From positions 1-19,369 of IMG/VR virus record IMGVR_UViG_3300045988_082853: a DNA stretch of 19,369 nt. One strand, written 5' to 3'. The notes under the pieces were generated by a model, which saw only the letters and a program-made list of their open reading frames with translations, was not told the origin of the DNA and searched no databases. Made by a program: the position numbers and the translations under genes. Source of the stretch: a virus. Below, in pieces: positions 214 to 19,369 of this stretch (the first letter of the stretch is position 1; each line of letters opens with the position of its first letter).

Positions 214-1119
214 ATGAAAACAGTAAATAATTGATTTAGAAATAATCCAGATTGAAAAAGTAAAATATTTATAGAACGCTATTTAAAGACAACTGGATGT
301 AATGTTATTTGGAATTCTAATCAATATTCTAAATTCGATGGATATATTGATTATAATAATAAAAGAATTCCTCTCGAACTAAAAGTGAGAGATTTATATT
401 CATTCTCTTATAAAGAAACACTTATTGATTACAAAAAATATATAAATCTAGTAAATGATAAGGGTATATTAATAGTTATATTTAAAGATTGCTTTATAAT
501 ATTTAAAGATGTAAAATCTGCTTTTAGTAATAGTCATTTTATATACTGTAGATCTACAACATCATTTGATGGATATTATGGTAACTTTAAAAAGTATTAT
601 TTAAATATTGCTAAAGGTAAAAAAGTTAATATAGATACAACTTTTTGTTATACTGGAGAAATATGAAAGAAAATTAAAGGCTATGATTATGAAGTTAGTA
701 CAAACGGTAATATTAGAAATAAGTTTGGCAAATTATTAAAACCGCATTATATAAAAGGTTATTATAATGTATGCTTATATTCTAATAAAGTTAGAAAAGA
801 ATTTATGGTACATAGATTAGTAGCTGATACATTTATTGGGATAAATTCTGAACTAGAAGTAAATCATATTAACGAAAACAAACTTGATAATAGAATTGAG
901 AACTTAGAGTGATGTGATAGAGAGTATAATATGAATTATGGAACTAGAAGCAAGAAAGTATCACAATATAATTTAGATGGATGCTTTATAAGGCAATATC
1001 CAGGAGCAGGATATGCTGCAAGAGAAGTAGGATGTTCAGCAACTACTATTAAAGATGCCTGTCGAGGAAGATTTGGGCATAATAAAGCTGTAGGATATAT
1101 GTGAGCTTATGAACAATAA
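214..1119 (+). CDS. NUMOD4/HNH homing endonuclease fused in frame, through a TGA, to a PD-(D/E)xK-like N-terminal domain (301 aa if TGA = Trp)
   Basis: ATG 214 opens a single frame to TAA 1117-1119 when the TGAs at 232, 253, 664, 910 and 1102 are read as Trp. The C-terminal half reads W(TGA)KKIKGYDYEVSTNGNIRN...VHRLVADTFI...VNHINENKLDNRIENLEW(TGA)CDREYN, the NUMOD4 plus HNH_3 signature, followed by an IENR1-like HTH (YAAREVGCSATTIKDACRG). The N-terminal ~150 aa carries FDGYIDYNNKRIPLELK (D-x13-E-x-K), a weak hint of a PD-(D/E)xK nuclease. The HNH part has no ATG of its own. Confidence 0.7.
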
Positions 1120-2416: not shown

Positions 2417-2777
2417 ATACTTATATGCTGCAAAGCTATTTAATAAAGGCTGATCCAGAAATAAAGTAAGCGAAGAATTACAAGCTAAATATAATGTTAG
2501 TCAATCAACAGCTGCTCGATATATTGGTGAAGCCTATAAAATAATTGCAGATAAGAATGATAATCTTATTAAGAATCTACGTCATATACAATTAACAAGA
2601 TTGGAGACATTATTAGATATGGCACTCGCTAAAGGTGATATTAGATCTGCAAATGAGGTTATTAAAACTATAAATTCAATGTTTGGATTAAATACACCTG
2701 AAATACAAGTTAATATACAAAATAACGAATGCCAGTTTAAATTTGGAGATCCTATTTTAAATGACAAAGATATATAA
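2337..2777 (+). CDS. terS: terminase small subunit
   Basis: ATG 2337 to TAA 2775-2777, with one TGA (2451) read as Trp. The N-terminus is MEQLPKKVGRPKKEE, followed by an HTH-like AAKLFNKGW(TGA)SRNKVSEELQAKYNVSQSTAARYIGEAY and a helical oligomerisation-like tail. It lies immediately upstream of TerL and overlaps it by 17 nt. Confidence 0.7.
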
Positions 2778-4008
2778 AGGATACAGTCCATTCGTTTATC
2801 AGTTTAAAGTACATACTGCTATGAACGAATCGTATAGATCAGGTAAAGTATATACAATTAAAGCTAAACGACAAGTTGGTAAATCTTTACTTGCCGAAAA
2901 TGAACTTTTAAGATTTGCAATAAATTATCCAGGTACAGTTAATTGTATAGTTGAACCTACTTTAGGGCAATCTAGAAAGGTATTTAAGGAAATAGTTAAT
3001 GCAACAATAGACTCTGACATTATAAAGAGAAAGAATGAAACTCTTTTGGAATTAGAGTTTACTAATAATAGCTCGATACTCTTTAGATCTGGAGAACAGA
3101 TGGATTCTTTACGAGGATTCTCAGTAAGTGGATTACTTGTATTAGATGAGGCTGCTTATTTAAAAGATGAAGTATTTGAGATTATAAAGCCTACTACAGA
3201 CGTATGATCTGCTCCAATCTTAATAATCAGTACACCTAGATTTAGAGAGGGATTCTTTTATGAATGCTTTATAAAAGGACAAGATCCAAAATATGAAAAG
3301 TTTTATAAATCATTTGATTGAGCATTAGAAGATACATCTATGCTGCTTGATAAAGAGAAGCTGGAAATGTATCGATTAACTACTTCCAAAAATAAATTTA
3401 AGACTGAATATCTTGGAGAATTTGCAGACGATGATGGATGTCTATTTAATAACATATCAGAATGTATATTAAGTGAAAAACCTTCATATACAAACCTTTA
3501 TATAGGAGTAGACTGAGCAACTGGAAGTGGCAAAGACTATACTTGCGTCACTGCTTTAAATGAAAAAGGCCAAATGGTATTTATTAAATATTTTAACGAC
3601 AAAACTCCAACGGAACAGGTTGATATACTGACATCTATATTCTCTGAATATCAAGATGTTATAAAGACAGTACAAGTTGAACAGAATTCAATTGGTAGTG
3701 TTTTTTATGATCTTCTTATTAAGAAGAATCCTAAAATACATATAGTTAAGTTTTTAACTACTAATTCTTCTAAAGCTAACCTTGTTAATAAGCTACAAGC
3801 TGCATTAGAGAATGGTAAAATTGGATTATTAAAAGATGATAAACTTTTAAATGAGTTGAGGTTATATGAAGCTAGTTACAATCCGAGAACTGGAAATGTA
3901 ACATATAACGCACCATCTGGATTTAATGACGATACAGTGATTAGTCTTATGTTGGCATACGACTCTTTAAATAACACTAAAGGTAAATATAACTTAAAAT
4001 TTAAATAA
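2761..4008 (+). CDS. terL: terminase large subunit (415 aa)
   Basis: The track pieces 2761..3207 and 3574..4008 plus the stretch between them share one frame, joined by TGAs at 3205, 3319 and 3514. Motifs present are Walker A KAKRQVGKS, Walker B LLVLDEAAY, TPR coupling motif (IISTPR), and nuclease motif YIGVDW(TGA)ATGSGKDYT ... FNDDTVISLMLA. The stop is TAA. Confidence 0.9.
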
Positions 4009-4009
4009 T

Positions 4010-4669
4010 ATGAATGTAGCAACAAAATGGGAAGAAGTCTCTTTAAAGAAATATGAGGAATTAATGCAATTTATTAAAGAAAACGTTAAGATGACTGATT
4101 TAGATAGAAGTATTGAAATATATGCTATTTTATCTGATAATAGAGATGAGGCTAGAGAAGAATTATTAAATATGCCTGTAGATAATCTTGGTAAAGAGCT
4201 TTCTAAAGTGCAGTTTATTATTAATAAATACAAGAGTAAAATTCCCGATACAGAATATACGATAGATGGAAATAAATATACAGTACAGTTGAATCTTAAA
4301 AGTATGACTGCTGCTCAGTATATTGACTTTCAAAATTTCTATAAAGATTATGAACATAACATTAAATATATATTTTTATGCTTTTTAATACCAAAAGGTA
4401 AGAAATATGGAGAAGATTATGATGTAATGGAATTAGCAGATTCTTTATATGATAAAATTCCAGTAACTATTGTAACAGATATAATGATTTTTTTTTGCCG
4501 CTTATTAAAAGGCTTAACAGTAGCTACCCTAATCTCTTCAATCAGGGAGATGAAGAAGATATTGAAGAAGGAGAAGGATCCAGTGAAAAAATATCAATTA
4601 CGGAAAATGATCGTACAAGCGAGAACAACTCTGAGTTTAGTGCAAAATGAAATTGGATCTGTTGAATAG
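4010..4669 (+). CDS. tail-assembly-chaperone-like protein, zero-frame product (219 aa)
   Basis: Intact ORF ending at TAG 4667-4669. It is a helical acidic protein (KWEEVSLKKYEELMQFI...MTAAQYIDFQNFY). It contains a U9 run at 4488-4496, and a long open -1 frame follows that run. Confidence 0.6.
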   Translation: MNVATKWEEVSLKKYEELMQFIKENVKMTDLDRSIEIYAILSDNRDEAREELLNMPVDNLGKELSKVQFIINKYKSKIPDTEYTIDGNKYTVQLNLKSMTAAQYIDFQNFYKDYEHNIKYIFLCFLIPKGKKYGEDYDVMELADSLYDKIPVTIVTDIMIFFCRLLKGLTVATLISSIREMKKILKKEKDPVKKYQLRKMIVQARTTLSLVQNEIGSVE

Positions 4670-4812
4670 ACAGAGTTAGTGAAACTACTCGATTAAATTG
4701 GCATCAAGTATATGATATGCAAATAAATGAGTTCTTGAATATTATATGCTATATAATAGATAAGGGTAATGAGGAAAAACGACAAATAGAAGAATGAAAG
4801 AGACGTCATTAA
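4010..4812 (+). CDS. candidate -1 frameshift fusion product (about 267 aa; join 4010..4495, 4495..4812)
   Basis: The -1 frame is open from 4456 to TAA 4810-4812, with TGAs at 4648, 4663 and 4795 read as Trp. It encodes a protein-like sequence: ...NLFNQGDEEDIEEGEGSSEKISITENDRTSENNSEFSAKWNWICWIDRVSETTRLNWHQVYDMQINEFLNIICYIIDKGNEEKRQIEEWKRRH. A slip on U UUU UUU (4489-4495) joins the two frames. Confidence 0.45.
4488..4496 (+). promoter_or_regulatory. U9 slippery run (X XXY YYZ = U UUU UUU in the zero frame)
   Basis: Nine consecutive T at 4488-4496. The zero-frame codons are ATT TTT TTT TGC. Both the 0 and -1 frames stay open downstream, for 58 and 105 codons respectively. Confidence 0.45.
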
Positions 4813-4851
4813 AATTTAAAGTTTTTATTTTTCTTATACCTAAAAGTTACA

Positions 4852-4892
4852 AAAAAACTTGACACTTAATAGGGAGCAAATCTCCCTATTAA
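4852..4892 (+). promoter_or_regulatory. AAAAAACTTGACA motif followed by a perfect 11-bp inverted repeat (operator or RNA hairpin)
   Basis: AAAAAACTTGACA lies at 4852-4864 and is identical to 13478-13490. It is followed by TTAATAGGGAG (4866-4876), loop CAAAT, and CTCCCTATTAA (4882-4892). There is no TATAAT at N17 and no T-tract after the stem. Confidence 0.4.
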
Positions 4893-4932
4893 TGTTAGGT
4901 ACTTATATCCAATAAATTATATTTTAGAAAAA

Positions 4933-5415: not shown

Positions 5416-7602
5416 ATGGCAGAATTAACACCTTCAAAGTTAGGAATTAACTCTACAGGTACTTTTAAGGTTTATTATAGTGCTGGTCAAATGGCAACTA
5501 ATGGTACTTATGATAACCTTTATTTATATCCTGAAGTTGCAGGTTTAAGTGGAACTATTACAGATCAAACAACTTCTGGCTGTACTATTAATATTACGAA
5601 TACAGCAGCTATTACTCAAGATCAGAATGTTACTTGTTCCTTCTCAGTAAATAATGACATTACAAAACCTGCAATTGTAAATTTCCCAATAAGACTGCAT
5701 AAAGATGCAGAAGGATTTTATCCAGATACAAGAACAATAACTGTACCAAATACTGGAGGAAGTTATACAGTAACTTTACAAACTAACTACGCAAATATTA
5801 AAAAATGAGATGTATCTGTTACAAGAGCAGACGCATTAGCAACAGTTACAGTATTAGATTTTGATTCATCTTATGTTAAATTTAAAATAGATGTTTCTGA
5901 AAATACGGAATGAACAGAAGATTTAACTGGAAGTATTGGTATAATTGGAATTAATACTAGTAATAGACGCATTGGTTGAAGATACTTATTTACAATTGCT
6001 AAATCAGATACACCTTCAGATTTAAATTTAATAGTTACTCCAGCTTCTGCAAATTATGATGCTGCTTTAATAGTTACAAATAAATTTTATTTAACTACTA
6101 CAAAAACGGAAGAGACTATTTCATCATTTAATGTTGTATGTAGTCAAGCAAGTAATATATTAAATAATACTGAAGATAATTCTTTTATTTTAACTTTACC
6201 TGAAAACGATACAGTAAATGATTTATCATTTGATGCATCAGTAACTGCACAAACATCTGGAGGATATACAATTAAAGCAACAGTACCTATTACTCAAAGT
6301 AAAACCTACTTGACTTTACCTGTTACAAATTATGATATAAGTTATTCTCAAAGTACATTAACTATTAATGGATTAAGTTCAAATAATATTAGTGCTAGTG
6401 ATGTAGTATTTGCAATTCCAGAAGATGCACAATCTTGAATAAGCTCTCCTAAATTTACATATAATAATGGAAACGCAATAATTACTTTTAATGTTACTGA
6501 AAATACTAGTTTATCAAGAAGAAATACTACAATCGGTATATCTGTAGTTAAAAATAGTAGTAGTATTATTAACTTATCTATAAATGTAAATCAAGCTGTT
6601 AAATCAGATATATCTCCGATTTGGAAAGATTATATTTGGGCTGAGGAAACCTTAGATGACTTTATAGAGTATCATTTAGATGATGGAGGAACTACAATTT
6701 ATGCAGGAAAAGCATATAAGTATCCAGGTGCAGATAGAGTAGAATTCTTATTAAATAGTGTAACTGAGAATTATTTATCTAATGGAATTTCATTCCCAAC
6801 TACATTAAGTACAAGCATTATGCCTAATTACTTGAAAGACTTTACTTTAGTAACCTCAACTGGAAATGAGAAGCCAATTATATTCTTTAATGACTGGTCT
6901 TATAAAGATACAGATTTAACAAGCGGATACTTCTTGAGCGATCCAATTACTGGCTTAATTGATCCAAGACAATATGTAATGGCAAGTTGGATATTACCTA
7001 CTGGAGAAGGTTTAGTTAATAGGTTCTTTTATAAAGATGGAGTTCAAAATGTAATTGATGTTACTTTAAGAAGTGGTATTAATGGTTATACATTTGTTGA
7101 GAATATAACTAATCTGCAATTAGGTTGTGGAGATTATATAGTTATAGCGTTTGTAGTTTCTGGAACTATTAGTCAAAAGCAAATTAAATATACAATAGAT
7201 AATACTGGAAAAGATTACGTTCTGTATTATGTAAATGCAGCTGGAGGATGGGATTCATTATTAATTGAAGGTAATGTTAAAAAGACTGATGAATTTGAAT
7301 CTGAGAGCTATATAAAACGAGTATTGAGACCCTCAACAGAGTTTGCAAGAAATAAATACCTGAATACTATTACTTCCAGTTGGACTTTATATACAGGTTA
7401 TTTAAATGATGAACAAGCATCTAAAATGTATAATCTGTTAGAATCTACTCAAGTATATTTACATAACCTTAAAGATAATACAATTACTCCAGTACTGATT
7501 ACAGATACAAGTTGTGAGTATAAGACTTATACAAATCAAGGTAAGAATAAGTTCTATTACACAATTAATGTAGAATCATCACAAGACAATTATAGAAAAT
7601 AA
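5416..7602 (+). CDS. tail/baseplate protein (728 aa): N-terminal Ig/BACON-like beta-sandwich repeats plus a distal-tail-like C-terminal domain
   Basis: Track pieces 5416..5808 and 6820..7602 share one frame. The interval between them has no TAA or TAG, and TGAs lie at 5806, 5911, 5977 and 6436. Repeated modules read ...GGSYTVTLQTNYANIKKW(TGA)DVSV... and ...AQSW(TGA)ISSPKFTYNNGNAIITFNVTENTSLSRRNTTIGISV (BACON-like W...N...R pattern). The C-terminal domain includes YVLYYVNAAGGWDSLLIEGN. The stop is TAA. Confidence 0.75.
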
Positions 7603-7603
7603 T

Positions 7604-10600
7604 ATGCGCAAAAATATCAAACTATTTATTGCAAATCAAGAGGTTGACTGTAGTGAGGGAATTAGTCTTCCTATGACTTATACAGTTGAGGATTTCCAAA
7701 ACCCCACTATAGTCAAAAACTCTTTCAGTAAGACGATTTCTATCCCTGGAACAAAGAATAACAACAAAATATTTGGAGAAATTTATAAGTTGGATAGATT
7801 GCTTCATATTAAAGATGGTAATATATCTGGAATTTACTTTGATCCATCTAAACGAGTAGATTTCCAAATTTATAATAATAGCTATTTAGTTGAATCTGGA
7901 TATATGCAATTAAATAGTATATCTATAAATAAAGCTGTAATTACCTATAATATTACTTTATATGGAGGTTTAGGTGATTTCTTCTATGGTCTTAAATATA
8001 AAGAAGACGGAGAAATTAGAACTCTTGCTGATTTACAGTACTTTATAACAGATGAAAATGGTAATTTATTACCAGAAGATGAAGAGATGAATTTCACAAT
8101 TAACAAGGATTTTGTAGATAAATGTTTTAGTTATCCTAATGTAAATAACAACGCAAACACTATTTATGACTTTGTTACTTTTACTCCAGCTTATAACGGT
8201 TTATATGATAACTTTGATAATGAGACTTGTTTAATTAACACTAATGGAACAAGTTTATTCCCAACAAGCGCAACAGATTCTGGCAATACATATACTCCTT
8301 ATAATGGCTATGCTTTAGCATCTTTAAATAAAGCATATACAGAATGGGAAATGAGAGATTTAAGAAGTTATATGCAAAGACCTGCAATTAAGCTTTCTAA
8401 ACTTATAGAGACTATTTGCAGAAAAGAGAACTCTGGATACGATGTAATATTCTATAATTCATTCTTTAATAGTTCTAATCCTTATTGGGATAAGACTTAT
8501 GTAGCTCTTCCTTTACTTGGGTCAAATTCTGATGAGGGAGAAGAGTCTATTACAGAGAATGCTCAATTACAGAAATATAATGATAAATTCTGGTGCGGAT
8601 TACAACCTGGAGGAAGTACTACTTCAGTAAATACTGGTATTTTTACAGTAGCTGGAAGTACAGCTATAGTTCCAGGTGAAAATGGAGTGATTAATTTAAG
8701 TGGAATTCCTGCAAGTGCATTGTCAGATATAGATCTTCCAGTACAGCTTGTATTTAATGCAAATACCTCAACTTCTGTAAATGATCTGTATTTAAGCTAT
8801 GTTTTAAATGGTAAGTTAGGAAATACTGAATATAGAAATCATCCTTATAGAACATCTGTAACATTACAATTACTTGTTTATAATGCAGATGAAAGTCCAA
8901 TTGGAAGAAAACCTATAGCATATTCATCGTTATATAACTTTACAAATTCTATACAAGGTCAAAGTCCTGCAGGTCCAAATACTTGGTTTAATTATTATCC
9001 TTTAACTGATGCAAAGGTAGAGACTATATTAGGTAACTTTAAAAAGTATCAAGATAAGTTATATACGTTTACTTCACAAACAGGAGGAGGTAATGTATTT
9101 CATTTAACAGTTACAGACATTCCAAAAGTAGAAAATATATCTATTTATCTACAAGTAGCAAGAAGAACAGAGAGTCTTTATAATCAAGATGTAATGTGGG
9201 GATCAAACAATATGAGACCTGGAACTACTGGAAATTATGCAGTAGCTGGATGGTCTGAAGTATTATTTGATGATGAAAATTATTCATTAACAGCTTCTTG
9301 GGCGTCCTCTATAGCTTCAGAAACTATCATAACTAAATCTACATTACTTAGAACAGAAAACTCTCCAGCAGACTTCTTATTAAGTTACGCAAAACTATTT
9401 GGTTTATACTTTAGTAAGGATATAGATTCAAAGACAATTAGGATATATACAAGAAATAACTTCTTTAAAGACAAGATTAACGATTGGTCTGATAGAATAG
9501 ACTATTCTCAAGATATAACGGTAAATCCTTTGTTATTTGATAAGAAATGGTATACAATGGCTTTAGAGACTCCAGAAACATATTATGCTAATAAATACGA
9601 TAAACAGTATGATATAACTTATGGACAGCAAAGACTTGATACTGGATATAACTTTAACTCAGATAATACTGATTTATATTCAGATAACATTTATGAAAAC
9701 GTTGTATCTGCAAGAGATGTAGATAAATACTTTAGAAACTTCTATAATTCAAGCAACGTATCTGTTCCTGCATTTATGAATGACAACATTACATATAGCT
9801 TATATAGAACTGTAAGTAATGAAAGAACATCATACGATCAAGATTTATATGGAGCTAACTTTATAGATGTATCTAAAACAGTAGAATGGTGAAATGTTCC
9901 AGGTAATGACATATTTGCCAAAAACTGCTTCTATTCATTAGATAATGCTGAGCAGAGCCTTGAAGAGATTGAATCTGCTTTAGTTATGTATAATGGAGAT
10001 GTAGCTATGAATGATATGAATGGTAATCCAATTGAATATTGAATTACTGATGATATAGCTGAAATGGCTTTATTAAATGATGGAGAAAACTGCTTCTTAT
10101 ATACAGCGAGTGAAACAGATAGTTCTGGTAAAAAGATAGCTATTAAAAGAACTACTTTACCTCAGTTTGTAAGATACGTAGATTCAAGTAATTATGTAAC
10201 TGCTTCATTAGATTTTGGACTTCCAAGAGAGATATATGTAGATAAAATTAAATATGATGAAGATAGTACTATTTACTACCAATTCTGGAGAGCATTCTAT
10301 AATGATCAATTTGATGTAAATACCAAAAAAGTTACTTGCTATGTAAAGATGAATGATTTGGACATCAAGTATGATTTATTAAGAGAATTCTATTATTTTG
10401 ATTCTGCTTATTGGATTCTTAATAAGATAGACTCTTATGACATTAATTCAGATGCAACTACAAGATGTGAGTTTATAAAGGTGCAAAATGTAACTAACTA
10501 CTTATATGGAATTCCAGAATTAGGTGATTACATTATAATGACTCCAAATAATATAGAGGTTCCTTATACAGCAGGTACTACAACTATTCAGGTATCATCT

Positions 10601-11059
10601 AATATTCCTTGGGAACTTGGATATTATAATAGTTCAAAGATAACTGGAATAACACCTACAAGCGGAGATAAAGGAGTTACTAATGTAAACATATCATATA
10701 ATGAGAACGATGACTATGATTCTTATAATTTCTATGCAAGATTCCAAAGACCTGGAGATACAACTGGATTAGGACCTGCTTGGTATTGTACACAACTTCC
10801 AGATCCTTCTAAAACAGTTAAAATCTCAGGCACTGTTAAATTAAGCAATGGAACAATTCCAGATTATAGTTTCCATATATGTGCATCTAATAGTAACTTT
10901 ACTAACTGTATATATGCAACAGATTCTACTGGATACTATTCATTATATGTTCAGAAAGGAGTTCCTTTTGATTTTAAAGTTCAAGGTGAAGGTGGAACTG
11001 CAATTTATAATGAAGAGTTAACTTTAAACGAAGATACTATTAAAAACATTACTATTTAA
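7604..11059 (+). CDS. large tail tip / host-recognition protein (1151 aa)
   Basis: Track pieces 7604..9892 and 10064..11059 share one frame, joined by TGAs at 9890 and 10040. The C-terminus carries an Ig/BACON-like module (TAGTTTIQVSSNIPWELGYYNSSKITGITPTSGDKGVTNVNISYNEN). It also carries a carboxypeptidase-regulatory-like beta-sandwich (KISGTVKLSNGTIPDYSF...ATDSTGYYSLYVQKGVPFDFKV). It sits one nucleotide after the previous tail gene. Confidence 0.8.
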
Positions 11060-11061
11060 TT

Positions 11062-13374
11062 ATGGCAGAAGAAATTAAAAAGGTTATCACAATCGATACT
11101 GCCAAAGGTTCAAAGTCGATCAAGCAGCTACGAGAAGAAGTAGCTGGCTTGACGGCTGAACTTGAAGATCTTGAAATTGGCAGTAGTGATTATTCTAAAA
11201 AACTTGAAGACTTAGTAACTGTACAGAATAAATTAACAGTAGCTACTGAGTCAATGCAAGGAAAGACTGTAAACGCAGTTAAAGCATTTGATAGTATAAA
11301 TCAAGTTGCTGGTGGATTAGCTGGAGGAGTTTCGGCTGTCAGTGCTGCATTTACTTTATTTGGAAAAGATACAGAGAATCTTGAAAAAACTATGGTAAAG
11401 CTTCAAGCAGCTATAGCAATAGTTCAAGGTATTGGTGGATTAAAAGGACTTGGAGAAGGTGTACTTAATGGAGTTAAAGCATTTAAGGCATTAGCTGTTT
11501 CAATGGGTACTGCTACTACTGCAACTGGAGGTTTATCTGTAGCAATGGGAGTATTAAGAACAGCGATTATTTCAACAGGTATAGGTGCATTAGTTGTAGC
11601 TTTAGGAATGTTAGTAGATTGAGCAATTAAAGCTGCATCAAGTACCAATGACCTTAAAGATAGTATCGCTGATTTAAATGATGCTACTGATGTTTGAGGA
11701 ACAAAATATGCTGATGCGAATACTCAAATAGCTGCATTAGATAGAAAAAGAGAACGAGAGTTAGCTGAAGGTAAGAAAAGTGAAATTCAAATATGAAAAG
11801 ATTATGCCGATGCTATATGACAAATAGGTGCAGAACTATGATCAGATTTTGGAGAGGTACAAAAACAATACAATAAAGGATTTATACAATTACTTCAAGG
11901 TAATAAAAAGTTTAGAAAAGAGTTTAAAGCATCTAATTTAGGTAACTGGGAAGATTTTGCTTCAGCTGTACAATGAGGGTTAAAAACAAGTTCTAATTAT
12001 ATAGATGAGTTTAATTCTAAATTAAGTGATGAAGAAAAGACTCAATATGAAGAGTTAAAATCAACATACGAAACTTATTTAGAAAAACGAAACGCTAGTA
12101 TGCAAAAATCTGCAGAACTTTATGAAAAAGTAAAGTTAATGGAGATTGCTGCAGACAGAAAGGCAAGAGAAAAAGCTATTGCTGAATATAATAAGAAAAA
12201 AGATGCATTTAAAGAACATATAAAAGAGTTATTAAAATTCATAGAAACGTTCAATAAAGAAAATAGACGAATTCTATTAACAGACGAAGCTAGAGAGGAA
12301 GAAGATATAAATGTTAAATATCAAAAACAATTAGACGCTCTAACAGAAGCTAAAAATCTTGAATTAATAACAACAGAAAAATATAATGAAAAATTAAATT
12401 TACTTAATAAAGCCTATTCTAAAGAATATGTAGATCTTTATACAGATAGATACAGGAAAGAGATTGAAGATAGAATGAACTCTCTAGAAGAATTAAGAGC
12501 AAAAGAAAATCTATTTTTCGATCAAAGACAATCTGAATTAGATACTAAGTATAATAAAACTTATACTCATAATGCTGGATTAGGTAATACATTTAAAACA
12601 GCAGGAGATATAAAAAATGAACGAAAAGATAGAATTGATAGAGCTAATGACACTCTTGGTTTAAAATTAGATTTTTTTGAGAGAGATAATAAACGTATAG
12701 ATCAATTACAAAAAACTTTAAAAGAATCATTTGATAATGGTTTAATAACTCAAGAAGAATATAATAACGAGTATGCAAGATTAAATGCAGAAAGAGAAGC
12801 TAATGATACTGCAGCTAAAAATGCTATAGTTGCTAATAGCGAGGAAATTAAACAAGCTAAAAAAGATGAAATTAAAGATATTGTAGCGGCAGTACAAGGA
12901 AGTTTCTCAGCATTAGGTACTTTAGGAGACGCTATTGCCGAAACTTATAAATTTGAAGCTAATAACTCAAAGAAATCTTTAAAGGAAAGAGAGGCGGCTT
13001 TAGATAATTACAAAACTATAGCAAAAATATCTACTGTATTTAATACTGCTTCTGCAGCTATGAGTGCATATAATTCTATGGCAGGAATTCCTGTAGTTGG
13101 ACCTGTACTTGGTGGTATAGCTGCAGCTGCTGCAATTGCTATGGGTATCTTGCAGATTAAAAATATTGATAATGAAGAGCTTAGTAACACTTCAGGAGCT
13201 TCTACATCAGCACCATCTGCATTAAATACAATGCCAGTTGAATATACTCGGAACTTACTTGGAGATAAAGAAACAGACCAACTTAACAATCCAATTAAAT
13301 GTTATGTTGTTGAATCTGACATTACAAATGCACAGACTAAAGTGGCAGTTACTGAGTCTAATGCAAGTTTCTAA
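11062..13374 (+). CDS. tape-measure-like protein (770 aa)
   Basis: Track pieces 11062..11622 and 12100..13374 share one frame, joined by six TGAs (11620, 11695, 11794, 11818, 11839, 11974). Long Lys/Glu-rich coiled-coil stretches are flanked by Gly/Ala-rich hydrophobic segments (AGGLAGGVSAVSAAFTLFG, GIGALVVALGMLV, GIPVVGPVLGGIAAAAAIAMGIL). The stop is TAA. Confidence 0.7.
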
Positions 13375-13477
13375 AGTGAGTAAATTATTGACAGCCTACT
13401 ATGTAAGTTACTGTAAATCAGTGCTTATATAGTAGTGCAATGTCAAAATTTTATTTATCTTAGATACCTGTGTGAGT

Positions 13478-13513
13478 AAAAAACTTGACAGTTATATTCT
13501 ATATAAATATAAT
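13478..13513 (+). promoter_or_regulatory. consensus sigma-70-type promoter of the head module
   Basis: TTGACA lies at 13485-13490, followed by a 17-nt spacer and TATAAT at 13508-13513. It is preceded by an A6 tract and sits in the largest intergenic gap, 58 nt upstream of ATG 13572. Confidence 0.6.
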
Positions 13514-13571
13514 TTATTAAAAGATTGTAAAAAATATTACATTTTTCTAACTAACTATATATTAATAAAAA

Positions 13572-14165
13572 ATGGAAAATATGTATAACGAACTGCCACT
13601 ATATCAAGCAGTAATAACTGACGATTTTGATGGCATAGAATATGTAGCTTTAACATCAAAGCCAGCTACTCAAGTAAACTGGGTTGCATTTAATAACTCT
13701 TTGAAATTCTCTATGGATGAAGATCAACATATTGTAACTTCTTGTTTAATGGTATGTGATATGCCAATTTTTAGACGAGACGACAATTTGGGAGAATATT
13801 ATATCCAATATGATAAAGAGACTTTAAGAGTAATGGCTGAGAAGATGATGAGGGATAAGAGAACTGATGCTGTTAATATAGAGCATTTAGAAGATTCTTC
13901 GATTCCTGGAATTGTACTACAAGAACTTTACATTAAAGATGAGAAACGAGGAATTTCTCCAATAGAATTCAAAGATGTGCCCGATGGTTCTTTATTTGTA
14001 ACTTACAAAATAAATAATCCTATTATTTGGGATGCTATTAAAGCAGGAAAGTTTAAAGGCTTCTCTATTGAAGGCTTATTTACTTTAGAACGTAAGGATG
14101 ATGAATATACAGAACTTAAAGAGATACAAAGAATGTTGAAGAAGATAAAACGAATTAAAAAGTAA
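13572..14165 (+). CDS. XkdF-like putative prohead serine protease
   Basis: Intact 197-aa ORF. VNIEHLEDSSIPGIVLQELYI...DGSLFVTYKINNPIIWDAIKAGKFKGFSIEG matches the pattern of the PBSX XkdF family (Peptidase_S78_2). It lies directly upstream of the scaffold and capsid genes. Confidence 0.6.
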   Translation: MENMYNELPLYQAVITDDFDGIEYVALTSKPATQVNWVAFNNSLKFSMDEDQHIVTSCLMVCDMPIFRRDDNLGEYYIQYDKETLRVMAEKMMRDKRTDAVNIEHLEDSSIPGIVLQELYIKDEKRGISPIEFKDVPDGSLFVTYKINNPIIWDAIKAGKFKGFSIEGLFTLERKDDEYTELKEIQRMLKKIKRIKK

Positions 14166-14168
14166 ACT

Positions 14169-14780
14169 ATGAGCAAATTCACTAAAATCAAATTAGAGCT
14201 TGCCAAAATGTTGGCAAAATTCAGTGACATCAAAACTGACAAAGCCGTCTTAACTTGGGATTCTGACGAAGATCTTAAAGCTGGAATGGATGTTTATGTA
14301 ATGGATGAGAATGGCGAATACGCTCCTGCTGCTGATGGTGATTATGTTACCGAAGATGGTAAAACTATCGTAGTTAAGGAAGGTCGCGTTGAATCAATTA
14401 CTGATCCTAAAGCTGAAGTAGATCCAGAGGAAGGAATGAGCACTGTTGAGGTAGCTGCTGCTTGCGGAACTAAGAAAGTAAACGCTGCTGAGGAAGAAGT
14501 TGCAGATCCTATGGTTCAAACCGATGGTGTTAAAGAAAGTGAAACCGATGCCATTGATGCAATTCATAGAGAGATTAATGAGCTTTATGACATTGTAGAC
14601 AAACTTACAAAGAAGGTTGCCGAGCTTGAAGCAAAAGGAACTGAAACAAAAGAGACTGTTGAGAAAATGAGCAAAATGAGTGCTGCTTTCTCTGCAGAAG
14701 AAGAGATTGAAACAAAGCGTACTACTCCTACAAGTGGCAATGCAGAAATAGATAGAAAGCTTAAAAACTTTATTGGTTAA
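14169..14780 (+). CDS. scaffolding protein
   Basis: Intact 203-aa ORF that is strongly acidic with a coiled-coil segment (REINELYDIVDKLTKKVAELEAKGTETKETVEKM). It sits between the protease and the major capsid gene. Confidence 0.6.
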   Translation: MSKFTKIKLELAKMLAKFSDIKTDKAVLTWDSDEDLKAGMDVYVMDENGEYAPAADGDYVTEDGKTIVVKEGRVESITDPKAEVDPEEGMSTVEVAAACGTKKVNAAEEEVADPMVQTDGVKESETDAIDAIHREINELYDIVDKLTKKVAELEAKGTETKETVEKMSKMSAAFSAEEEIETKRTTPTSGNAEIDRKLKNFIG

Positions 14781-14801
14781 TAATTTAAAAATTAATAAAA
14801 T

Positions 14802-15701
14802 ATGAATCCTGTAATGACTTCTTTGACTGCTTATGTTGAGCAGCGTAGATTACCTCTTATTAAAGAGGCTGTATTAAAAGCTAAGAGTGCTAGTTTATTT
14901 AACTTACAGACTGATATCAAAACTTCAGCTGCTCTTAACTTACTTTCAACTGATGTTGAATTTGGAGATGGTCTGACTTGTGGATGGGATGAGGCTGGAA
15001 CGCAGACTCTTTCACAACGAGTTCTTACGACTGGAAATATCAAGATTAATATGGCTTATTGCGACAAAGCTATGCTTAAATATTGGACTCAGTATCAGGT
15101 TCGCGTTGCTGCTGGTCAGAAAACGCTTCCTTTCGAAGAGGACTTTATTAGTAGTGTAGTTGAGAATGTTAAAGCCGCTATTGAAACCGCTATCTGGCAA
15201 GGTGATACTAGTTCTAGTACGAACAACCTTAAATATTTCGATGGTCTGTTAAAGATCTTAAAAGATGCTGATGGTACTGTTGATGTAACGATTACTGGTA
15301 CTTCTGCTTACGATGACATTATGGCTGTTTATAACGCTATTCCTGAGAAAGTACTTGATGGTGCTTCTATCTTAGTAGGCGCTGATACCTTCCGTAAATT
15401 TGTACAGGAGTTAGTTGCTAAGAACTACTTCCATTATAGTGGTGAGAATCTTAACGGTGAGATTATGCTTCCTGGTTCGCAGGTTAAAGTAATCGCTGTT
15501 AATGGTCTTAACGGAACTGACAAGATCGTTGCTGGTCAGCTTGACAAGAACTTCTTCTATGGCTGCGATATGATGAATGACGAAGAGAAATTCGAAATGT
15601 GGTATTCGCAGGATTTCAGAGAATTTAGATTAGCTGTTGAATTTAACGCTGGTGTACAGATTGCATTCCCTGACGAAGTAGTATTAGGTGCTAAAGCTTA
15701 A
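14802..15701 (+). CDS. major capsid protein (HK97-fold type, 299 aa)
   Basis: Intact ORF. The pattern ...VENVKAAIETAIWQGDTSSSTNNLKYFDGLLKIL... and the position after protease and scaffold are typical of Phage_capsid-type MCPs. GC content is higher and codon choice is biased (GCT/GGT/CGT). Confidence 0.85.
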   Translation: MNPVMTSLTAYVEQRRLPLIKEAVLKAKSASLFNLQTDIKTSAALNLLSTDVEFGDGLTCGWDEAGTQTLSQRVLTTGNIKINMAYCDKAMLKYWTQYQVRVAAGQKTLPFEEDFISSVVENVKAAIETAIWQGDTSSSTNNLKYFDGLLKILKDADGTVDVTITGTSAYDDIMAVYNAIPEKVLDGASILVGADTFRKFVQELVAKNYFHYSGENLNGEIMLPGSQVKVIAVNGLNGTDKIVAGQLDKNFFYGCDMMNDEEKFEMWYSQDFREFRLAVEFNAGVQIAFPDEVVLGAKA

Positions 15702-15741
15702 TTTCAATAGAAACGTTTAACTTTAAATAGTAATTGAAATT

Positions 15742-16260
15742 ATGGCTTGCTTAATAACGCTTAATGGAATTACACTTGATTGCCAGCCTTCGTTAGGTGG
15801 TATCAAACGAGTTTGGATTACTCAATATTCAGATGTAAAATCTGTAGTTGTAGGTGACGACAATATGATTGAAAGTATCACTTTAGAGGGTGAAGCTCAA
15901 TGGTATGAGTATCAGTTCCGTAAGGCTACTGGTTCTTTAACCTCAACTCTGAATGTTGACGAATCCGCAGGAGTTAACTATGTAAGCAATGAGTTAGCTC
16001 TTGTATTTACAAAGATGGAAACTGCTAAGAGAATTGAAATTGCAGCTTTATCGATTGGTCAGCTTGCAGTTGTTGTTGAGGATAGTAATGGTCATTACTG
16101 GTTCCTTGGTAAAGATGATTATGTAAGCGCTTCTGCAGGTACTGGTATTACTGGTACAGCAAAAGGTGATCAGAATGCTTATACTCTGACTCTCTCTACT
16201 GATTCGGATTCTTATCCTTATGAGTTGTCAGCAGAAGCTATTGCTGCAATAGTTGGATAA
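15742..16260 (+). CDS. putative major tail (tube) protein, or another abundant virion protein
   Basis: Intact 172-aa ORF. GGIKRVWITQ...VVVEDSNGHYWFLGKDDYVSASAGTGITGTAKGDQNAYTLTL resembles siphophage tube proteins. It shares the biased composition of the MCP gene and is followed by a strong terminator. Confidence 0.5.
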   Translation: MACLITLNGITLDCQPSLGGIKRVWITQYSDVKSVVVGDDNMIESITLEGEAQWYEYQFRKATGSLTSTLNVDESAGVNYVSNELALVFTKMETAKRIEIAALSIGQLAVVVEDSNGHYWFLGKDDYVSASAGTGITGTAKGDQNAYTLTLSTDSDSYPYELSAEAIAAIVG

Positions 16261-16267
16261 TCAGATT

Positions 16268-16306
16268 AAGAGCGGGTAATTAATTTTACTCGCTCTTATT
16301 TTGTTT
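16268..16306 (+). terminator. rho-independent terminator closing the head module
   Basis: AAGAGCGGGTAA (16268-16279), loop TTAATT, and TTACTCGCTCTT (16286-16297) form a 12-bp stem with one G-U pair. ATTTTGTTT follows immediately, 8 nt after the TAA of the preceding gene. Confidence 0.75.
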
Positions 16307-16335
16307 ATAGACATTAATAATAAAAATTATATAAT

Positions 16336-17739: not shown

Positions 17740-19369
17740 TGGAAAATCTATTACCCTATTTAAATGTACTTGAGGCAGACACTATTACAAGGGATAACGT
17801 AACCAAAGCCTTAGTAATAGATAAAGATGATAATATAGCTCTTTTAAATGGAGAAGATTTAGGAACTAATAATTATCAAGATCTGCAAAATAAGCCAGAA
17901 ATAAACGAAATATCTTTAAATGGGAATCTTACTGCAAGTGAGTTAGGATTAGCATCTACTAGCGATATACCTACTAAAACTAGTCAATTGACTAATGATA
18001 GTGGGTATATTACTAGCTTAGATGGATATGCTACAGAGGAATGAGTAAATAGTCAAGGATTTGCTACTAATGAATCTGTTACTGAAGGTTTAGCTGGAAA
18101 ACAAGATGAATTAGTTGAAGGTAATGGAATCAATATATCTGGAAATACTATATCTGCTGATTATAGTTCAATAGATAATAAGCCATCTTTAAATGGTAAG
18201 ACTTTGGAAGCCTCAACGAACATAGTTCCAGCAATACAGGTTCAAGCAATACCTACTAAATTGACTATTGCTCCCTCTTTAGGCAATCAAACTGGACAAG
18301 CAGTTGAACTTCCTGGATATGATACAAGTACTAATGCTTCTGGTATTTTAACATCTCAAGTATTTGGTATTCTTAATGATAAGTATACTAAAGAAGAAAT
18401 AGACAATATTAACAGTGCAATTAACACAGCTATTTCTAAAAAACAAGATAAATTAACAGCAGGAGCCAATATACGAATTGTAGATAACGTTATATCTGCA
18501 TTTAATAATCATTTATTCTTACATTTAGATGAAAATGATACAGAACATCAAGCTTATGTATATTCTTTTATTAAGTCTAATTTAGAGTTCTATTTATTTG
18601 CTGAGATAACTTATGAAGGCAAAGTAGTAGTTCTTCCTTTAGTTGCCATTGAAAACAACGAATCATTAGATTTAAAAGGAATGTATCTTAAAGATGATTC
18701 TACAATCGTTGAGGTATCTGCAGTTTTAGTAGCTAATGGTAACATAAGTGTAAATACTTCTGAAATATCAATATCTGGAGGTAGTGGAGGAACTAGCGAT
18801 TATAATCAATTAACAAATAAGCCACAGATTAATTCAGTAGAATTGTCTGGAAATAAAACCCTTGCTGATCTTGGTATTCAAGCTGCTGGAGATTATGCTA
18901 CTACTTCTGATTTGGCATTAAAAGCAGATAAAAGTACAGTTGATACATTACAAGAGCAAGTAACTAGTAATACCTCTGCAATTGCTACTAAACAGGATAT
19001 TCTTGTTAGTGGAGAATCAATTAGAACAATTAACAATCTTTCTTTATTAGGGGAAGGTAATATTAATGTAGGCGATGTTCCTTCTATTACAGTAGAAAAT
19101 GAGCAAATACCAAATGAGACAGATTTTAATAGAGTTGCAGAAGCTGCGGCAAATAATAGAGTTGTTTTAATTAGAATTAAAACTACTGAAATGACGTTAA
19201 CCTCTAATTATTGACAGTATGCCTCTTCAGAATCTCAGAGACTCTTTATTGCTTATGCAACATATTTATCAGGAACTAATAACATAACTCTGATGGCATA
19301 TATTATAGAAAATCAACCAGTTATGGTAGAAACTTATGATAAAGAATTACAAGAAGAGTTAGTTTCTGG
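17739..19369 (+). CDS. tail fibre protein (partial; runs off the 3' end of the window)
   Basis: Track pieces 17739..18044 and 18204..19214 and the remaining sequence share one frame, joined by TGAs at 18042 and 19212. A recurring fibre motif is present: YQDLQNKPEINEISLNGN, YSSIDNKPSLNGKTL, DYNQLTNKPQINSVELSGNKTLADLG. Also present are EEW(TGA)VNSQGFATNESVTEGLAGKQDEL and coiled segments (KADKSTVDTLQEQVTSNTSAIATKQD). Confidence 0.8.

What the first reader, a model, noticed from the sequence alone, without database searches (positions are those of the whole stretch)
13478..16306. Head module is TGA-free and largely compositionally distinct, and has its own consensus promoter and terminator
The four genes from 13572 to 16260 (protease, scaffold, MCP, tube-like) contain 10 Trp codons, all TGG, and no in-frame TGA. 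The rest of the window uses TGA and TGG at roughly 1:1, so ten out of ten TGG would occur by chance about once in a thousand. That estimate needs caution, because usage is heterogeneous: 7604..11059 has 14 TGG against 2 TGA. From about 14169 onward the DNA is visibly GC-richer. Hand counts on sample 60-nt lines give 28/60 at 15061, 26/60 at 15481 and 21/60 at 14341. Comparable lines elsewhere give 10/60 at 12361 and 16/60 at 8101. The block is bracketed by a perfect TTGACA-N17-TATAAT promoter and a 12-bp-stem terminator. It is therefore the one transcription unit here that is translatable under either genetic code. One reading is that capsid production is insulated from the recoding state while terminase, tape measure and fibres depend on it. 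A second is strong codon optimisation of the most abundant proteins. A third is recent acquisition of the module from a standard-code phage.
Basis: partly seen in the sequence, partly recalled or inferred. Interest (0 to 1): 0.7.

Follow-up and report, generated by a model that had tools for sequence, protein, structure and literature searches.

The report
Capsid and tube genes avoid recoded TGA
In a roughly 30-kb gut phage that reads TGA as tryptophan, the genes for its most abundant particle proteins (scaffold, capsid, tail tube) never use TGA and show the codon bias typical of highly expressed genes, so this looks like ordinary selection for efficient translation rather than a code-insulated or imported module.

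Summary
Genes 13572-16260 have 0 TGA and 10 TGG, against 30 and 30 elsewhere in the window (Fisher p=0.004). GC is 0.37-0.38 against 0.30. The only perfect TTGACA-N17-TATAAT in the window lies upstream, and a strong hairpin terminator lies downstream.

The pattern holds across about 22-33 related TGA-recoded genomes:
- MCP: 0 TGA / 88-128 TGG
- scaffold: 0/15-20
- tube-like: 1/66-93
- TerL: 48% TGA
- tail proteins: 31-46% TGA
- fibre: about 90% TGA
- homing endonucleases: 62% TGA

Synonymous A/G sites in the head genes do flip, while the Trp codons do not. The effect is per gene, not per operon. The protease carries TGA in a third of the relatives, and TGA-bearing homing endonucleases sit inside the module in several relatives.

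Scaffold, MCP and tube show classic high-expression codon bias: C-ending two-fold codons, and T-ending rather than A-ending four-fold codons. The same bias and the same GC rise occur in a TGA-free sister phage and in distant standard-code relatives. That rules out recent import from a standard-code phage.

No suppressor tRNA exists in any genome examined, one of them a complete circle. How TGA is decoded remains unexplained.

Verdict: this is a new example of a known kind of pattern, of moderate interest.

The parts
13376..13458 (+). Long imperfect hairpin directly after the stop codon of the tape-measure-like gene, followed by a T-rich run. It is probably the terminator of the upstream tail operon.
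   Evidence: Region 13375-13580 folds at -47 kcal/mol, z-score -5.5. A long hairpin occupies this position in nearly all of the 22 relatives, in two unrelated sequence versions. Function is inferred.
13485..13513 (+). Sigma-70-type consensus, TTGACA-N17-TATAAT, 58 nt upstream of the protease start codon. Candidate promoter of the head cassette.
   Evidence: It is the only 12/12 match in the window. TTGACA is kept in 13 of 22 relatives, a perfect -10 in only 3 of 22, and the segment is deleted in 9 of 22. About 7% of shuffled windows contain one such match anywhere. Not verified experimentally.
13572..14165 (+). Prohead protease (XkdF / Peptidase_S78_2-like). 0 TGA and 2 TGG here; GC 0.315.
   Evidence: PF14550 E=1e-9; phrog_24921 N-terminal half E=6e-28. 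TGA fraction across the family is 0.15-0.16.
14169..14780 (+). Scaffolding protein. Acidic, helical C-terminal part. 0 TGA and 1 TGG; GC 0.392.
   Evidence: It matches the C-terminal half of phrog_24921, a fused protease-scaffold profile, and sits between protease and MCP. Family counts are 0 TGA against 15-20 TGG. The assignment rests on position and a weak profile match.
14802..15701 (+). Major capsid protein. 0 TGA and 4 TGG; GC 0.39; GC3 0.31.
   Evidence: phrog_11320 E=2e-22, phrog_1623, phrog_10. Family counts are 0 TGA against 88-128 TGG. There are 0 A/G changes at 4 Trp columns against 0.78 per Lys/Glu/Gln column.
15742..16260 (+). 0 TGA and 3 TGG; GC 0.387.
   Evidence: phrog_19091, function unknown. 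The AlphaFold2 model has pLDDT 63 and pTM 0.62. The top Foldseek PDB hits are tail tube proteins of phages 7-7-1, Milano, SPR and Mu, with E from 4e-3 to 0.2. The support is consistent but weak. Family counts are 1 TGA against 65-92 TGG.
16267..16308 (+). Intrinsic terminator: a 13-bp stem with a 6-nt loop, followed by a T-rich run (TTTTGTTTAT).
   Evidence: -22.7 kcal/mol, z-score -7.5. A full-length hairpin is kept in 22 of 22 relatives, in two versions whose stems differ on both arms. The sister phage L030 has an unrelated hairpin plus T-run at the same position.

Best explanation
The block is the high-output cassette of a siphovirus-like, TGA=Trp phage. It encodes protease, scaffold, major capsid protein and a probable tail tube protein, lies between two hairpin terminators, and may have its own promoter. 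The three proteins needed in the largest numbers (scaffold, MCP, tube) are under selection for fast and accurate translation. That selection produces two things. One is a classic high-expression codon bias together with an Ala/Gly/Val/Asp/Glu-rich composition, which jointly raise GC. The other is exclusion of the reassigned TGA in favour of the unambiguous TGG. I infer that TGA is read less efficiently than TGG, or with some risk of termination. Low-copy proteins (terminase, tape measure, tail and fibre proteins, homing endonucleases) are not under that pressure, and in them TGG and TGA interchange freely. What is shown: the codon counts, the codon bias, its conservation across relatives, the free TGA/TGG flipping in other genes, and the hairpins. 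What is inferred: the expression levels, the cost of TGA, and promoter activity.
For: **Family-wide TGA fraction per orthogroup.**
- Low: MCP 0/88, scaffold 0/15, tube 1/66, portal 6/69, protease 7/43.
- High: TerL 32/66, tail proteins 0.31-0.39, tape measure 0.46, fibre 0.91, homing endonucleases 0.62.
- A second, larger set of relatives gives the same picture.

**This is not mere inheritance.** Parsimony counts on gene trees:
- MCP plus tube: 1 A/G change in 7 Trp columns, against 0.75 changes per Lys/Glu/Gln column in the same genes. About 5-6 changes were expected, so Poisson p is roughly 0.01-0.03.
- TerL and tail genes: Trp columns flip 1.2-1.7 times per column, at least as often as their Lys/Glu/Gln columns.
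- TerL is about as conserved as the MCP (76-80% against 80-88% nucleotide identity), yet it is 48% TGA.

**Codon bias in scaffold, MCP and tube against the rest of the window.**

| Codon choice | Head genes | Rest | p |
|---|---|---|---|
| TTC (Phe) | 64% | 24% | 2e-4 |
| ATC vs ATT (Ile) | 33% | 9% | 2.5e-4 |
| CAG (Gln) | 75% | 23% | 6e-6 |
| GCT:GCA (Ala) | 48:14 | 136:132 | not tested |
| GGT:GGA (Gly) | 31:12 | 93:150 | not tested |
| CCT:CCA (Pro) | 12:1 | 73:78 | not tested |

**Correlation.** Across 27 orthogroups the TGA fraction falls as T-ending bias at four-fold sites rises (Spearman -0.50, p=0.008).

**Ancestry of the bias and the GC rise.**
- The same codon bias is present in the TGA-free sister L030, in a second recoded lineage L031, and in distant standard-code relatives.
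- The same GC rise is present in these relatives.
- L031's MCP is also 0 TGA / 4 TGG while its neighbouring genes have 9 TGA / 4 TGG.

**Protein identity.** The tube-like protein matches tail tube folds. The TGA-free set is therefore the set of highest-copy virion proteins.

**Transcription signals.** The terminator after the tube gene is conserved with changes on both stem arms.
Against: - There are few independent Trp columns (4 in MCP, 3 in tube, 0-1 in scaffold), so the phylogeny-aware statistics are only moderately significant.
- Several low-TGA genes lack the high-expression codon bias. These are the minus-strand helicase-like gene (1/57), the 4010-4669 product (2/31) and the portal (6/69). 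Expression level cannot be the only factor.
- In crAss-like recoded phages the MCP does carry recoded stop codons (PMC7886860), so avoidance in capsid genes is not a general rule.
- The host, its tRNA pool and its reading of UGA are unknown, so the 'cost of TGA' is an inference.
- The base following TGA shows no clear anti-termination context.
- No expression data exist.
Confidence: 0.6

Rival explanations
1. Regulatory insulation. The TGA-free genes are meant to be translatable in an unmodified standard-code cell, while TGA-bearing genes wait for a code switch. This is the model proposed for early versus late genes in other recoded phages.
For: - The minus-strand helicase-like gene, presumably early, is also nearly TGA-free (1/57).
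- The host probably has a cell wall, because the endolysin is a Peptidase_M15_3. It is therefore unlikely to be a wall-less code-4 mycoplasma.
- No gene in the window has a Shine-Dalgarno sequence.
- Borges et al. report depletion of recoded stops in integrase and replication genes and enrichment in lysis, tail and homing-endonuclease genes. The endonuclease and tail results match here.
Against: - No suppressor tRNA, release factor or TrpRS is encoded in any genome, including a complete circular one. No phage-controlled switch is visible.
- Small ORFs in the minus-strand module carry TGA.
- Portal, terminase and tail proteins are needed together with the capsid proteins, so releasing only scaffold, MCP and tube has no obvious use.
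- The protease carries TGA in 7 of 22 relatives, and TGA-bearing endonuclease genes sit inside the cassette in relatives.
- The model does not explain the codon bias at non-Trp codons.
Confidence: 0.15
2. Phylogenetic inertia or chance. The ancestor had only TGG, as the TGA-free sister L030 suggests. Slowly evolving core genes have simply not yet acquired TGA.
For: - L030 has 38 TGG and at most 1 in-frame TGA, so TGG is the likely ancestral state.
- The head genes are the most conserved at protein level (79-90% identity against 47-64% for tail genes).
- There are only about 10 Trp columns.
- Within the window alone p is only 0.004, and codon usage is heterogeneous.
Against: - In the same head genes, 52-82% of conserved Lys/Glu/Gln columns are polymorphic for A against G, with 0.7-1.1 changes per column. 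Synonymous sites are therefore not frozen.
- TerL is as conserved at the DNA level but has 48% TGA and 1.67 flips per Trp column.
- TGA variants do arise in the portal and tube genes but remain rare, as expected under purifying selection.
Confidence: 0.12
3. Recent horizontal acquisition of the head module from a GC-richer, standard-code phage.
For: - The block is GC-richer than its surroundings (0.38 against 0.30) and free of TGA.
- Gene-scale recombination is frequent in the family. For example, contig 133025 has an MCP 97% identical to the window's, but scaffold 78% and TerL 77%.
Against: - Every MCP with at least 87% identity lies in a TGA-recoded genome. The nearest non-recoded MCP (L030) is only 67% identical.
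- The GC rise of the MCP is found in 20 of 21 relatives examined, of either code (+0.02 to +0.09; L035 shows none).
- Half of the codon shift is from A-ending to T-ending codons, which does not change GC.
- The GC boundary does not follow the module: the protease is not GC-rich, and the rise continues to about 17000.
Confidence: 0.04

Closest known systems
Gene-family-specific preference for, or avoidance of, recoded stop codons in alternatively coded gut phages (Borges et al., bioRxiv 10.1101/2021.08.26.457843)
   Same: - The genome is TGA-to-Trp recoded, and use of the recoded codon differs strongly between gene families.
- Homing endonucleases, tail genes and lysis genes are rich in it.
- A replication gene is nearly free of it.
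- A closely related lineage uses no TGA stop codons ('divestment').
   Different: - In that work structural genes as a class are described as recoded, and the avoiding families are integrase and replication genes. Here the avoiding families are the most abundant structural proteins, inside the late region.
- No suppressor tRNA or other code-change gene is present.
- The avoidance comes together with a general high-expression codon bias, which points to efficiency rather than timing.
Translational selection on codon usage in highly expressed genes (general principle; own knowledge)
   Same: - C-ending codons are preferred in two-fold pyrimidine-ending families, T-ending codons in four-fold families, and rarely or poorly decoded codons are avoided.
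- The bias is concentrated in the most abundant proteins.
   Different: - The avoided codon is a reassigned stop codon, so its cost could include termination as well as slow decoding.
- Agreement with the host's tRNA pool could not be tested because the host is unknown.
Phage genomes with blocks in different genetic codes (Mgcod, bioRxiv 10.1101/2022.06.29.495998; crAss-like phages, PMC7886860)
   Same: A contiguous stretch that can be read under the standard code lies inside a genome that otherwise needs code 4.
   Different: - The stretch is only 2.7 kb and covers four genes.
- It is broken in relatives by TGA-bearing insertions and by a TGA in the protease.
- The pattern follows genes, not blocks.
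- In recoded crAss-like phages the MCP itself carries recoded stop codons.
Phages that avoid TGA altogether and so remain viable under either code (Liu et al., mBio 2023, PMC10746230)
   Same: The sister phage L030 has no TGA as a stop codon and essentially none as a sense codon across 20 ORFs. The window's head genes share that property.
   Different: In the window only some genes avoid TGA. The rest of the genome depends on TGA=Trp.

Membership tests
Code-4 (TGA=Trp) alternatively coded phage | In-frame TGA in conserved genes; reading TGA as sense restores full-length ORFs | tested here: met
   + strand ORF total is 6290 aa under code 4 against 4698 aa under code 11. TerL, tail and tape-measure genes are split under code 11. 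The ratio is 1.15-2.55 in 33 relatives.
Code-4 (TGA=Trp) alternatively coded phage | TGA aligns with Trp (TGG) in homologues, not with Gly | tested here: met
   In columns that hold TGA, the other sequences mostly carry TGG, followed by Tyr, Phe and Leu codons. Single columns switch between TGA and TGG.
Code-4 (TGA=Trp) alternatively coded phage | TGA is not used as a stop codon | tested here: met
   Every gene in the window that is complete within it ends in TAA or TAG.
Code-4 (TGA=Trp) alternatively coded phage | Phage-encoded TGA suppressor tRNA or other code-change genes (typical of the group, not obligatory) | tested here: not met
   ARAGORN finds no tRNA in the window or in 68 related loci. 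Rfam finds none at the gathering threshold or at E<=1. One genome is a complete circle. No unassigned ORF is large enough to be a release factor or TrpRS.
Early/late code partition used as a lytic-cycle regulator (Borges-type model) | Early or replication genes free of the recoded codon; structural and lysis genes enriched in it | tested here: inconclusive
   The helicase-like gene is 1/57 and lysis, tail and endonuclease genes are 0.39-0.63. However, small ORFs in the early module carry TGA, and the main capsid genes are the most depleted of all.
Early/late code partition used as a lytic-cycle regulator (Borges-type model) | The host uses the standard code | not testable with these tools
   The host was not identified. 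The genome scan gave only distant hits in Bacteroidota MAGs. Indirect clues are a cell-wall endolysin and the absence of Shine-Dalgarno sequences.
Expression-linked codon bias (translational selection) | A consistent synonymous-codon shift in the candidate genes that is not explained by base composition alone | tested here: met
   C-ending two-fold codons increase, and four-fold sites shift from A-ending to T-ending. The direction is the same in six relatives of either code. The bias correlates with TGA fraction.
Expression-linked codon bias (translational selection) | The candidate genes are the most highly expressed, and their preferred codons match the host tRNA pool | not testable with these tools
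   High copy number is inferred from identity as MCP, scaffold and tube. No expression data and no host genome are available.
Sigma-70 promoter plus intrinsic terminator defining a transcription unit | Consensus -35 and -10 hexamers with 17-nt spacing, in an intergenic region, in the right orientation | tested here: met
   12/12 match at 13485-13513, the only one in the window.
Sigma-70 promoter plus intrinsic terminator defining a transcription unit | The promoter is conserved in relatives | tested here: inconclusive
   The -35 is kept in 13 of 22, a perfect -10 in 3 of 22, and the segment is deleted in 9 of 22. No comparable consensus promoter is found in the early region of a relative.
Sigma-70 promoter plus intrinsic terminator defining a transcription unit | GC-rich hairpin followed by a T-run, with the structure conserved despite sequence change | tested here: met
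   two stem versions, both fully paired, in 22 of 22 relatives; an unrelated hairpin at the same site in L030.
Tail tube protein (for gene 15742-16260) | Tail-tube fold | tested here: inconclusive
   The model has pLDDT 63. The top five Foldseek hits are tail tube chains, with E 4e-3 to 1e-2 and TM-scores 0.37-0.49. No sequence-family annotation exists (phrog_19091, function unknown).

The most novel reading that the evidence does not exclude
This phage family encodes no suppressor tRNA, lyses a walled host, and has a sister lineage in which TGA is neither a stop nor a sense codon. TGA may therefore be read ambiguously or inefficiently in the infected cell. Possible routes are a host tRNA, an edited tRNA-Trp, or weakened RF2. 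The phages may exploit this as a dosage throttle. Under this reading the density of TGA sets how much of each protein is made: none in scaffold, capsid and tube, many in fibres, terminase, lysis genes and selfish endonucleases. That would be a living 'ambiguous intermediate' stage of codon reassignment, used for setting protein stoichiometry.
Probability: 0.12. Interest if true: 0.75.

Novelty: new member of a known kind. Interest (0 to 1): 0.38.

Why it matters
Recoded stop codons in phages are usually discussed as on/off switches that separate early from late genes. This case shows a graded, per-gene use inside the late region. The reassigned codon is excluded from the highest-copy virion proteins and tolerated or favoured in low-copy ones. 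That is what one expects if the recoded codon is still costly to read.

It gives a simple and testable prediction about decoding efficiency. It also draws attention to a common 30-kb gut phage family that uses TGA=Trp without any visible means of decoding it.

On the practical side, the TGA-free capsid and tube genes are the ones that standard-code gene callers and databases will capture intact for this family.

Tried and rejected
- **Annotated phage records.** Searching them with the MCP protein and with the whole window as DNA gave no match.
- **Species genomes (host search).** The scan gave only two distant hits (34-36% identity) on short Bacteroidota MAG contigs. This is not informative for this clade.
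- **A 148-kb IMG/VR contig.** It looked like a possible prophage in a host genome. The sequence wraps around the phage genome, so it is a concatemer-like assembly.
- **Exact-protein lookup.** It returned only short phage contigs.
- **Suppressor tRNA.** Searched with ARAGORN and with Rfam at permissive thresholds; none found.
- **Base after TGA.** I looked for a weak-termination context as a sign of competition with RF2. The deviations were small (A 0.42 against 0.38, T 0.19 against 0.22) and the data are not independent, so the result is inconclusive.
- **Bacteroidota-type promoter (TTTG...TAnnTTTG).** No match in the window.
- **Code 25 (TGA=Gly).** Rejected, because TGA aligns with TGG.
- **Antisense ORFs within 14000-16300.** I treated these as by-products of the higher GC. 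They have no homology support and were not tested further.


Full report
**What the window is**

The window is 30.6% GC, and every credible gene lies on the + strand. Reading TGA as a sense codon joins fragments into long ORFs. The + strand ORF total rises from 4698 aa under code 11 to 6290 aa, while reading TAG as sense adds little. In relatives, columns that contain TGA contain TGG far more often than any other codon. The code is therefore TGA=Trp (code 4), not Gly. Every gene that is complete within the window ends in TAA or TAG.

Gene assignments:
- Large terminase, 2761-4008
- Two large tail or receptor-binding proteins, 5416-11059
- A tape-measure-like protein, 11062-13374
- An XkdF-type prohead protease, 13572-14165 (PF14550)
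- A scaffold, 14169-14780
- The major capsid protein (MCP), 14802-15701 (phrog_11320, phrog_1623)
- A 172-aa protein of unknown family, 15742-16260
- Ig-domain and fibre proteins downstream

The AlphaFold2 model of the 172-aa protein (pLDDT 63) finds tail tube proteins as its best PDB matches, at marginal E-values.

**Checking the observation**

- The four genes hold 0 TGA and 10 TGG. The other 14 genes hold 30 and 30. Fisher p=0.0037.
- Lys, Glu and Gln codons in the four genes end in A 59% of the time. Ten TGG out of ten is therefore not explained by base composition (p about 1e-4 on that expectation).
- The five hand GC counts are exact. GC is 0.382 for 14169-16260 against 0.296 outside the block.
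- The 12/12 promoter consensus at 13485-13513 is unique in the window.
- The terminator at 16267-16298 is a 13-bp hairpin followed by a T-rich run.

Qualifications:
- The protease gene is not GC-rich (0.315).
- The GC rise continues to about 17000, beyond the terminator.
- Five other small genes in the window also lack TGA.
- About 7% of shuffled windows contain a perfect promoter match somewhere.

I also found a long hairpin right after the tape-measure stop codon, at 13376-13458 (z-score -5.5), followed by a T-rich run. A hairpin stands at this position in nearly all of the 22 relatives, in two unrelated sequence versions. The cassette is therefore flanked by hairpins on both sides.

**Relatives**

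The MCP found 596 related stretches in IMG/VR. About 33 of the retrieved loci are close relatives (87-98% MCP identity) from genomes of roughly 30 kb and 31% GC that also need code 4. A second scan with the terminase let me stitch 21 near-complete genomes. One of them, 33,611 bp, has a 55-bp terminal repeat and is therefore a complete circle.

These genomes carry:
- a small minus-strand module with a 573-aa helicase-like gene
- a portal (PF04860)
- a Peptidase_M15_3 endolysin
- about four GIY-YIG or HNH homing endonucleases each

None carries a tRNA, by ARAGORN or by Rfam even at E<=1. None has an unassigned ORF large enough to be a release factor or a Trp-tRNA synthetase.

**Does the TGA-free state hold in the family?**

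It does, but per gene rather than per operon. TGA and TGG counts across 22 genomes:

| Orthogroup | TGA / TGG | TGA fraction |
|---|---|---|
| MCP | 0 / 88 | 0 |
| Scaffold | 0 / 15 | 0 |
| Tube | 1 / 65 | 0.02 |
| Helicase-like gene | 1 / 56 | 0.02 |
| 4010-4669 product | 2 / 29 | 0.06 |
| Portal | 6 / 63 | 0.09 |
| Protease | 7 / 36 | 0.16 |
| Tail 5416 | 90 / 205 | 0.31 |
| Tail 7604 | 147 / 226 | 0.39 |
| Tape measure | 69 / 80 | 0.46 |
| TerL | 32 / 34 | 0.48 |
| Homing endonucleases | 180 / 111 | 0.62 |
| Fibre | 10 / 1 | 0.91 |

The larger set of 32-33 loci agrees: MCP 0/128, scaffold 0/20, tube 1/92. A more distant recoded lineage, L031 (58% MCP identity), again has an MCP with 0 TGA and 4 TGG beside genes with 9 TGA and 4 TGG.

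The cassette as a whole is not kept free of TGA. The protease has a TGA at one Trp column in 7 of 22 genomes. Relatives also carry low-GC endonuclease genes, most of them with TGA:
- between protease and scaffold (this one has no TGA)
- between scaffold and MCP
- between MCP and tube
- upstream of the protease

**Selection or inheritance?**

The sister phage L030 (67% MCP identity, same gene order) has 38 TGG and at most one in-frame TGA. TGG is therefore the likely ancestral state, and inertia is a fair rival explanation. Three results argue against it.
- Synonymous sites in the head genes are not frozen. Between 52% and 82% of conserved Lys, Glu and Gln columns are polymorphic for A against G.
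- On gene trees these columns change 0.7-1.1 times each, while the 7 Trp columns of MCP plus tube show one change in total. About 5-6 were expected, so Poisson p is roughly 0.01-0.03.
- In TerL and the tail genes the Trp columns flip 1.2-1.7 times per column, at least as often as their Lys/Glu/Gln columns. TerL is about as conserved at the DNA level as the MCP.

In the portal and tube genes TGA variants do arise but stay rare, as expected under purifying selection. The number of independent columns is small, so this evidence is moderate rather than overwhelming.

**Why these genes?**

Scaffold, MCP and tube differ from the rest of the window in a way that is typical of highly expressed genes.
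- C-ending codons rise in two-fold families: TTC 64% against 24%, ATC (against ATT) 33% against 9%, AAC 45% against 22%.
- CAG rises to 75% against 23%, and GAG to 46% against 26%.
- Four-fold families move from A-ending to T-ending codons: GCT:GCA 48:14 against 136:132, GGT:GGA 31:12 against 93:150, CCT:CCA 12:1 against 73:78.

The last shift does not change GC, so this is not a simple compositional or foreign signature. The GC rise comes from the C- and G-ending preferences together with an Ala/Gly/Val/Asp/Glu-rich composition (GC1 0.51-0.55).

Across 27 orthogroups the TGA fraction falls as this bias rises (Spearman -0.50, p=0.008). The same bias, and an MCP that is GC-richer than its surroundings by 0.02-0.09 in all but one of them (L035), are found in L030, in L031 and in distant standard-code relatives. 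Both features are therefore older than the recoding.

**The three readings**

*Import from a standard-code phage* is not supported.
- All close MCP relatives sit in recoded genomes.
- The GC and codon features are ancestral.
- The abundant mosaicism is exchange within the family. For example, one relative's MCP is 97% identical to the window's while its scaffold is 78% and its TerL 77%.

*A code-insulated transcription unit* is not supported as stated.
- No code-switch machinery is encoded.
- The early module contains TGA-bearing ORFs.
- Portal, terminase and tail proteins are needed at the same time as the capsid proteins.
- The cassette is not kept free of TGA in relatives.

*Selection on the most abundant proteins* fits all of the data, provided that TGA is a poorer Trp codon than TGG in the infected cell. 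That cost is an inference.

The published framework for recoded phages already includes gene families that avoid or prefer the recoded codon. Integrase and replication genes avoid it. Lysis, tail and intron-endonuclease genes prefer it. In recoded crAss-like phages the MCP does contain recoded stop codons. This case is therefore a new example with a different set of avoiding genes, not a new principle.

**What remains unexplained**

How TGA is decoded is unknown.
- There is no phage tRNA.
- The M15 endolysin argues for a walled host, so not a classical code-4 mycoplasma.
- No gene in the window has a Shine-Dalgarno sequence.
- No Bacteroidota-type promoter was found, and the host search was uninformative.
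- The literature notes the same gap for many recoded phages.
- L030, which uses TGA neither as a stop nor as a sense codon, resembles the TGA-avoiding phages described for hosts of mixed code.

Taken together, these points leave room for ambiguous or inefficient UGA reading that the phages exploit to set protein dosage. I rate that at about 12%.

**Transcription signals**

The terminator after the tube gene is the best-supported signal.
- It is fully paired in 22 of 22 relatives, in two versions that differ on both stem arms.
- An unrelated hairpin with a T-run occupies the same site in L030.

The promoter is a perfect consensus in the right place. However, it is perfect in only 3 of 22 genomes and the segment is deleted in 9 of 22. 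No comparable consensus promoter appears in the early region of a relative. It is a reasonable candidate, not an established feature.

**Verdict**

The best-supported meaning is expression-linked codon selection in the highest-copy virion proteins, which includes avoidance of the reassigned TGA. This is a new member of a known kind of pattern, of moderate interest. An open question remains about how this tRNA-less family reads TGA at all.

Noticed in passing
L030 1-20710 (IMGVR_UViG_3300029905_000019): This sister phage (MCP 67% identical, same gene order, 28% GC) has 20 ORFs ending in TAA (17) or TAG (3). None ends in TGA, and it has at most 1 in-frame TGA against 38 TGG. TGA occurs 507 times on the + strand when all three frames are counted. 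TGA is effectively unassigned, so the genome can be read under either code.
   Followed up: partly
Relatives: contig 134784 at 21271-21873 and 22477-23115; L001 10944-11711; contig 046576 at 17942-18475; window 214-1119: GIY-YIG and HNH homing endonucleases are very common: 85 copies in 20 genomes. They sit at variable sites, including between the head genes of relatives. They are low in GC and use TGA for 62% of Trp codons. In the window, gene 214-1119 is an HNH endonuclease fused to an N-terminal domain that is a separate gene in relatives.
   Followed up: partly
Whole family (window, L001-L034, L083-L116): No tRNA of any kind was found, nor any release factor or Trp-tRNA synthetase, in a family that uses TGA=Trp in most genes. 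One genome is a complete 33.6-kb circle. The endolysin is a Peptidase_M15_3, so the host has a cell wall. How TGA is decoded is unexplained.
   Followed up: partly
window 13376-13458: A long imperfect hairpin follows the tape-measure stop codon directly and is followed by a T-rich run. Relatives carry either this hairpin or an unrelated one at the same place. It is probably the terminator of the tail operon.
   Followed up: partly
window, 30 nt upstream of all 18 gene starts: No Shine-Dalgarno motif precedes any gene. The upstream regions are A/T-rich (for example AATAAAAAATG). No Bacteroidota-type promoter motif was found either. The host type remains open.
   Followed up: partly
window 4495-4812 (overlaps 4010-4669): An ORF in another frame overlaps the 3' end of gene 4010-4669 and fills the otherwise non-coding gap 4670-4932. 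It has 3 TGA and 2 TGG. It may be a frameshift extension or a separate small gene.
   Followed up: no
window 16308-16335: A second promoter-like site, TAGACA-N16-TATAAT (11/12), ends directly against the ATG at 16336. It could not serve that start codon unless the mRNA is leaderless or the true start lies further downstream.
   Followed up: no
L001 / L102 (IMGVR_UViG_3300045988_175865, 148,631 bp): The last 28 kb of this 148-kb 'viral' contig wraps once around the phage genome: positions 120208-124515 match the end of a relative's genome, and positions from 124580 onward match its start. It looks like a concatemer-style assembly of related genomes, not a prophage in a host contig.
   Followed up: partly
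window versus contigs 133025, 046576 and 175865: Mosaicism occurs at the scale of single genes. One relative has an MCP 97% identical in DNA to the window's, with scaffold 78%, tube 81% and TerL 77%. Another has scaffold 100% but protease 62%. A third has TerL 79% but head genes 98%.
   Followed up: yes
L030 8622-8647 and 12311-12338: Nearly the same 26-nt A/T-rich motif (TATATTTTATTAAAAA[T/A]TAAAATAAA, then ATGG) precedes both the protease gene and the gene after the tube terminator in L030. It may be a shared promoter or translation-initiation element.
   Followed up: no
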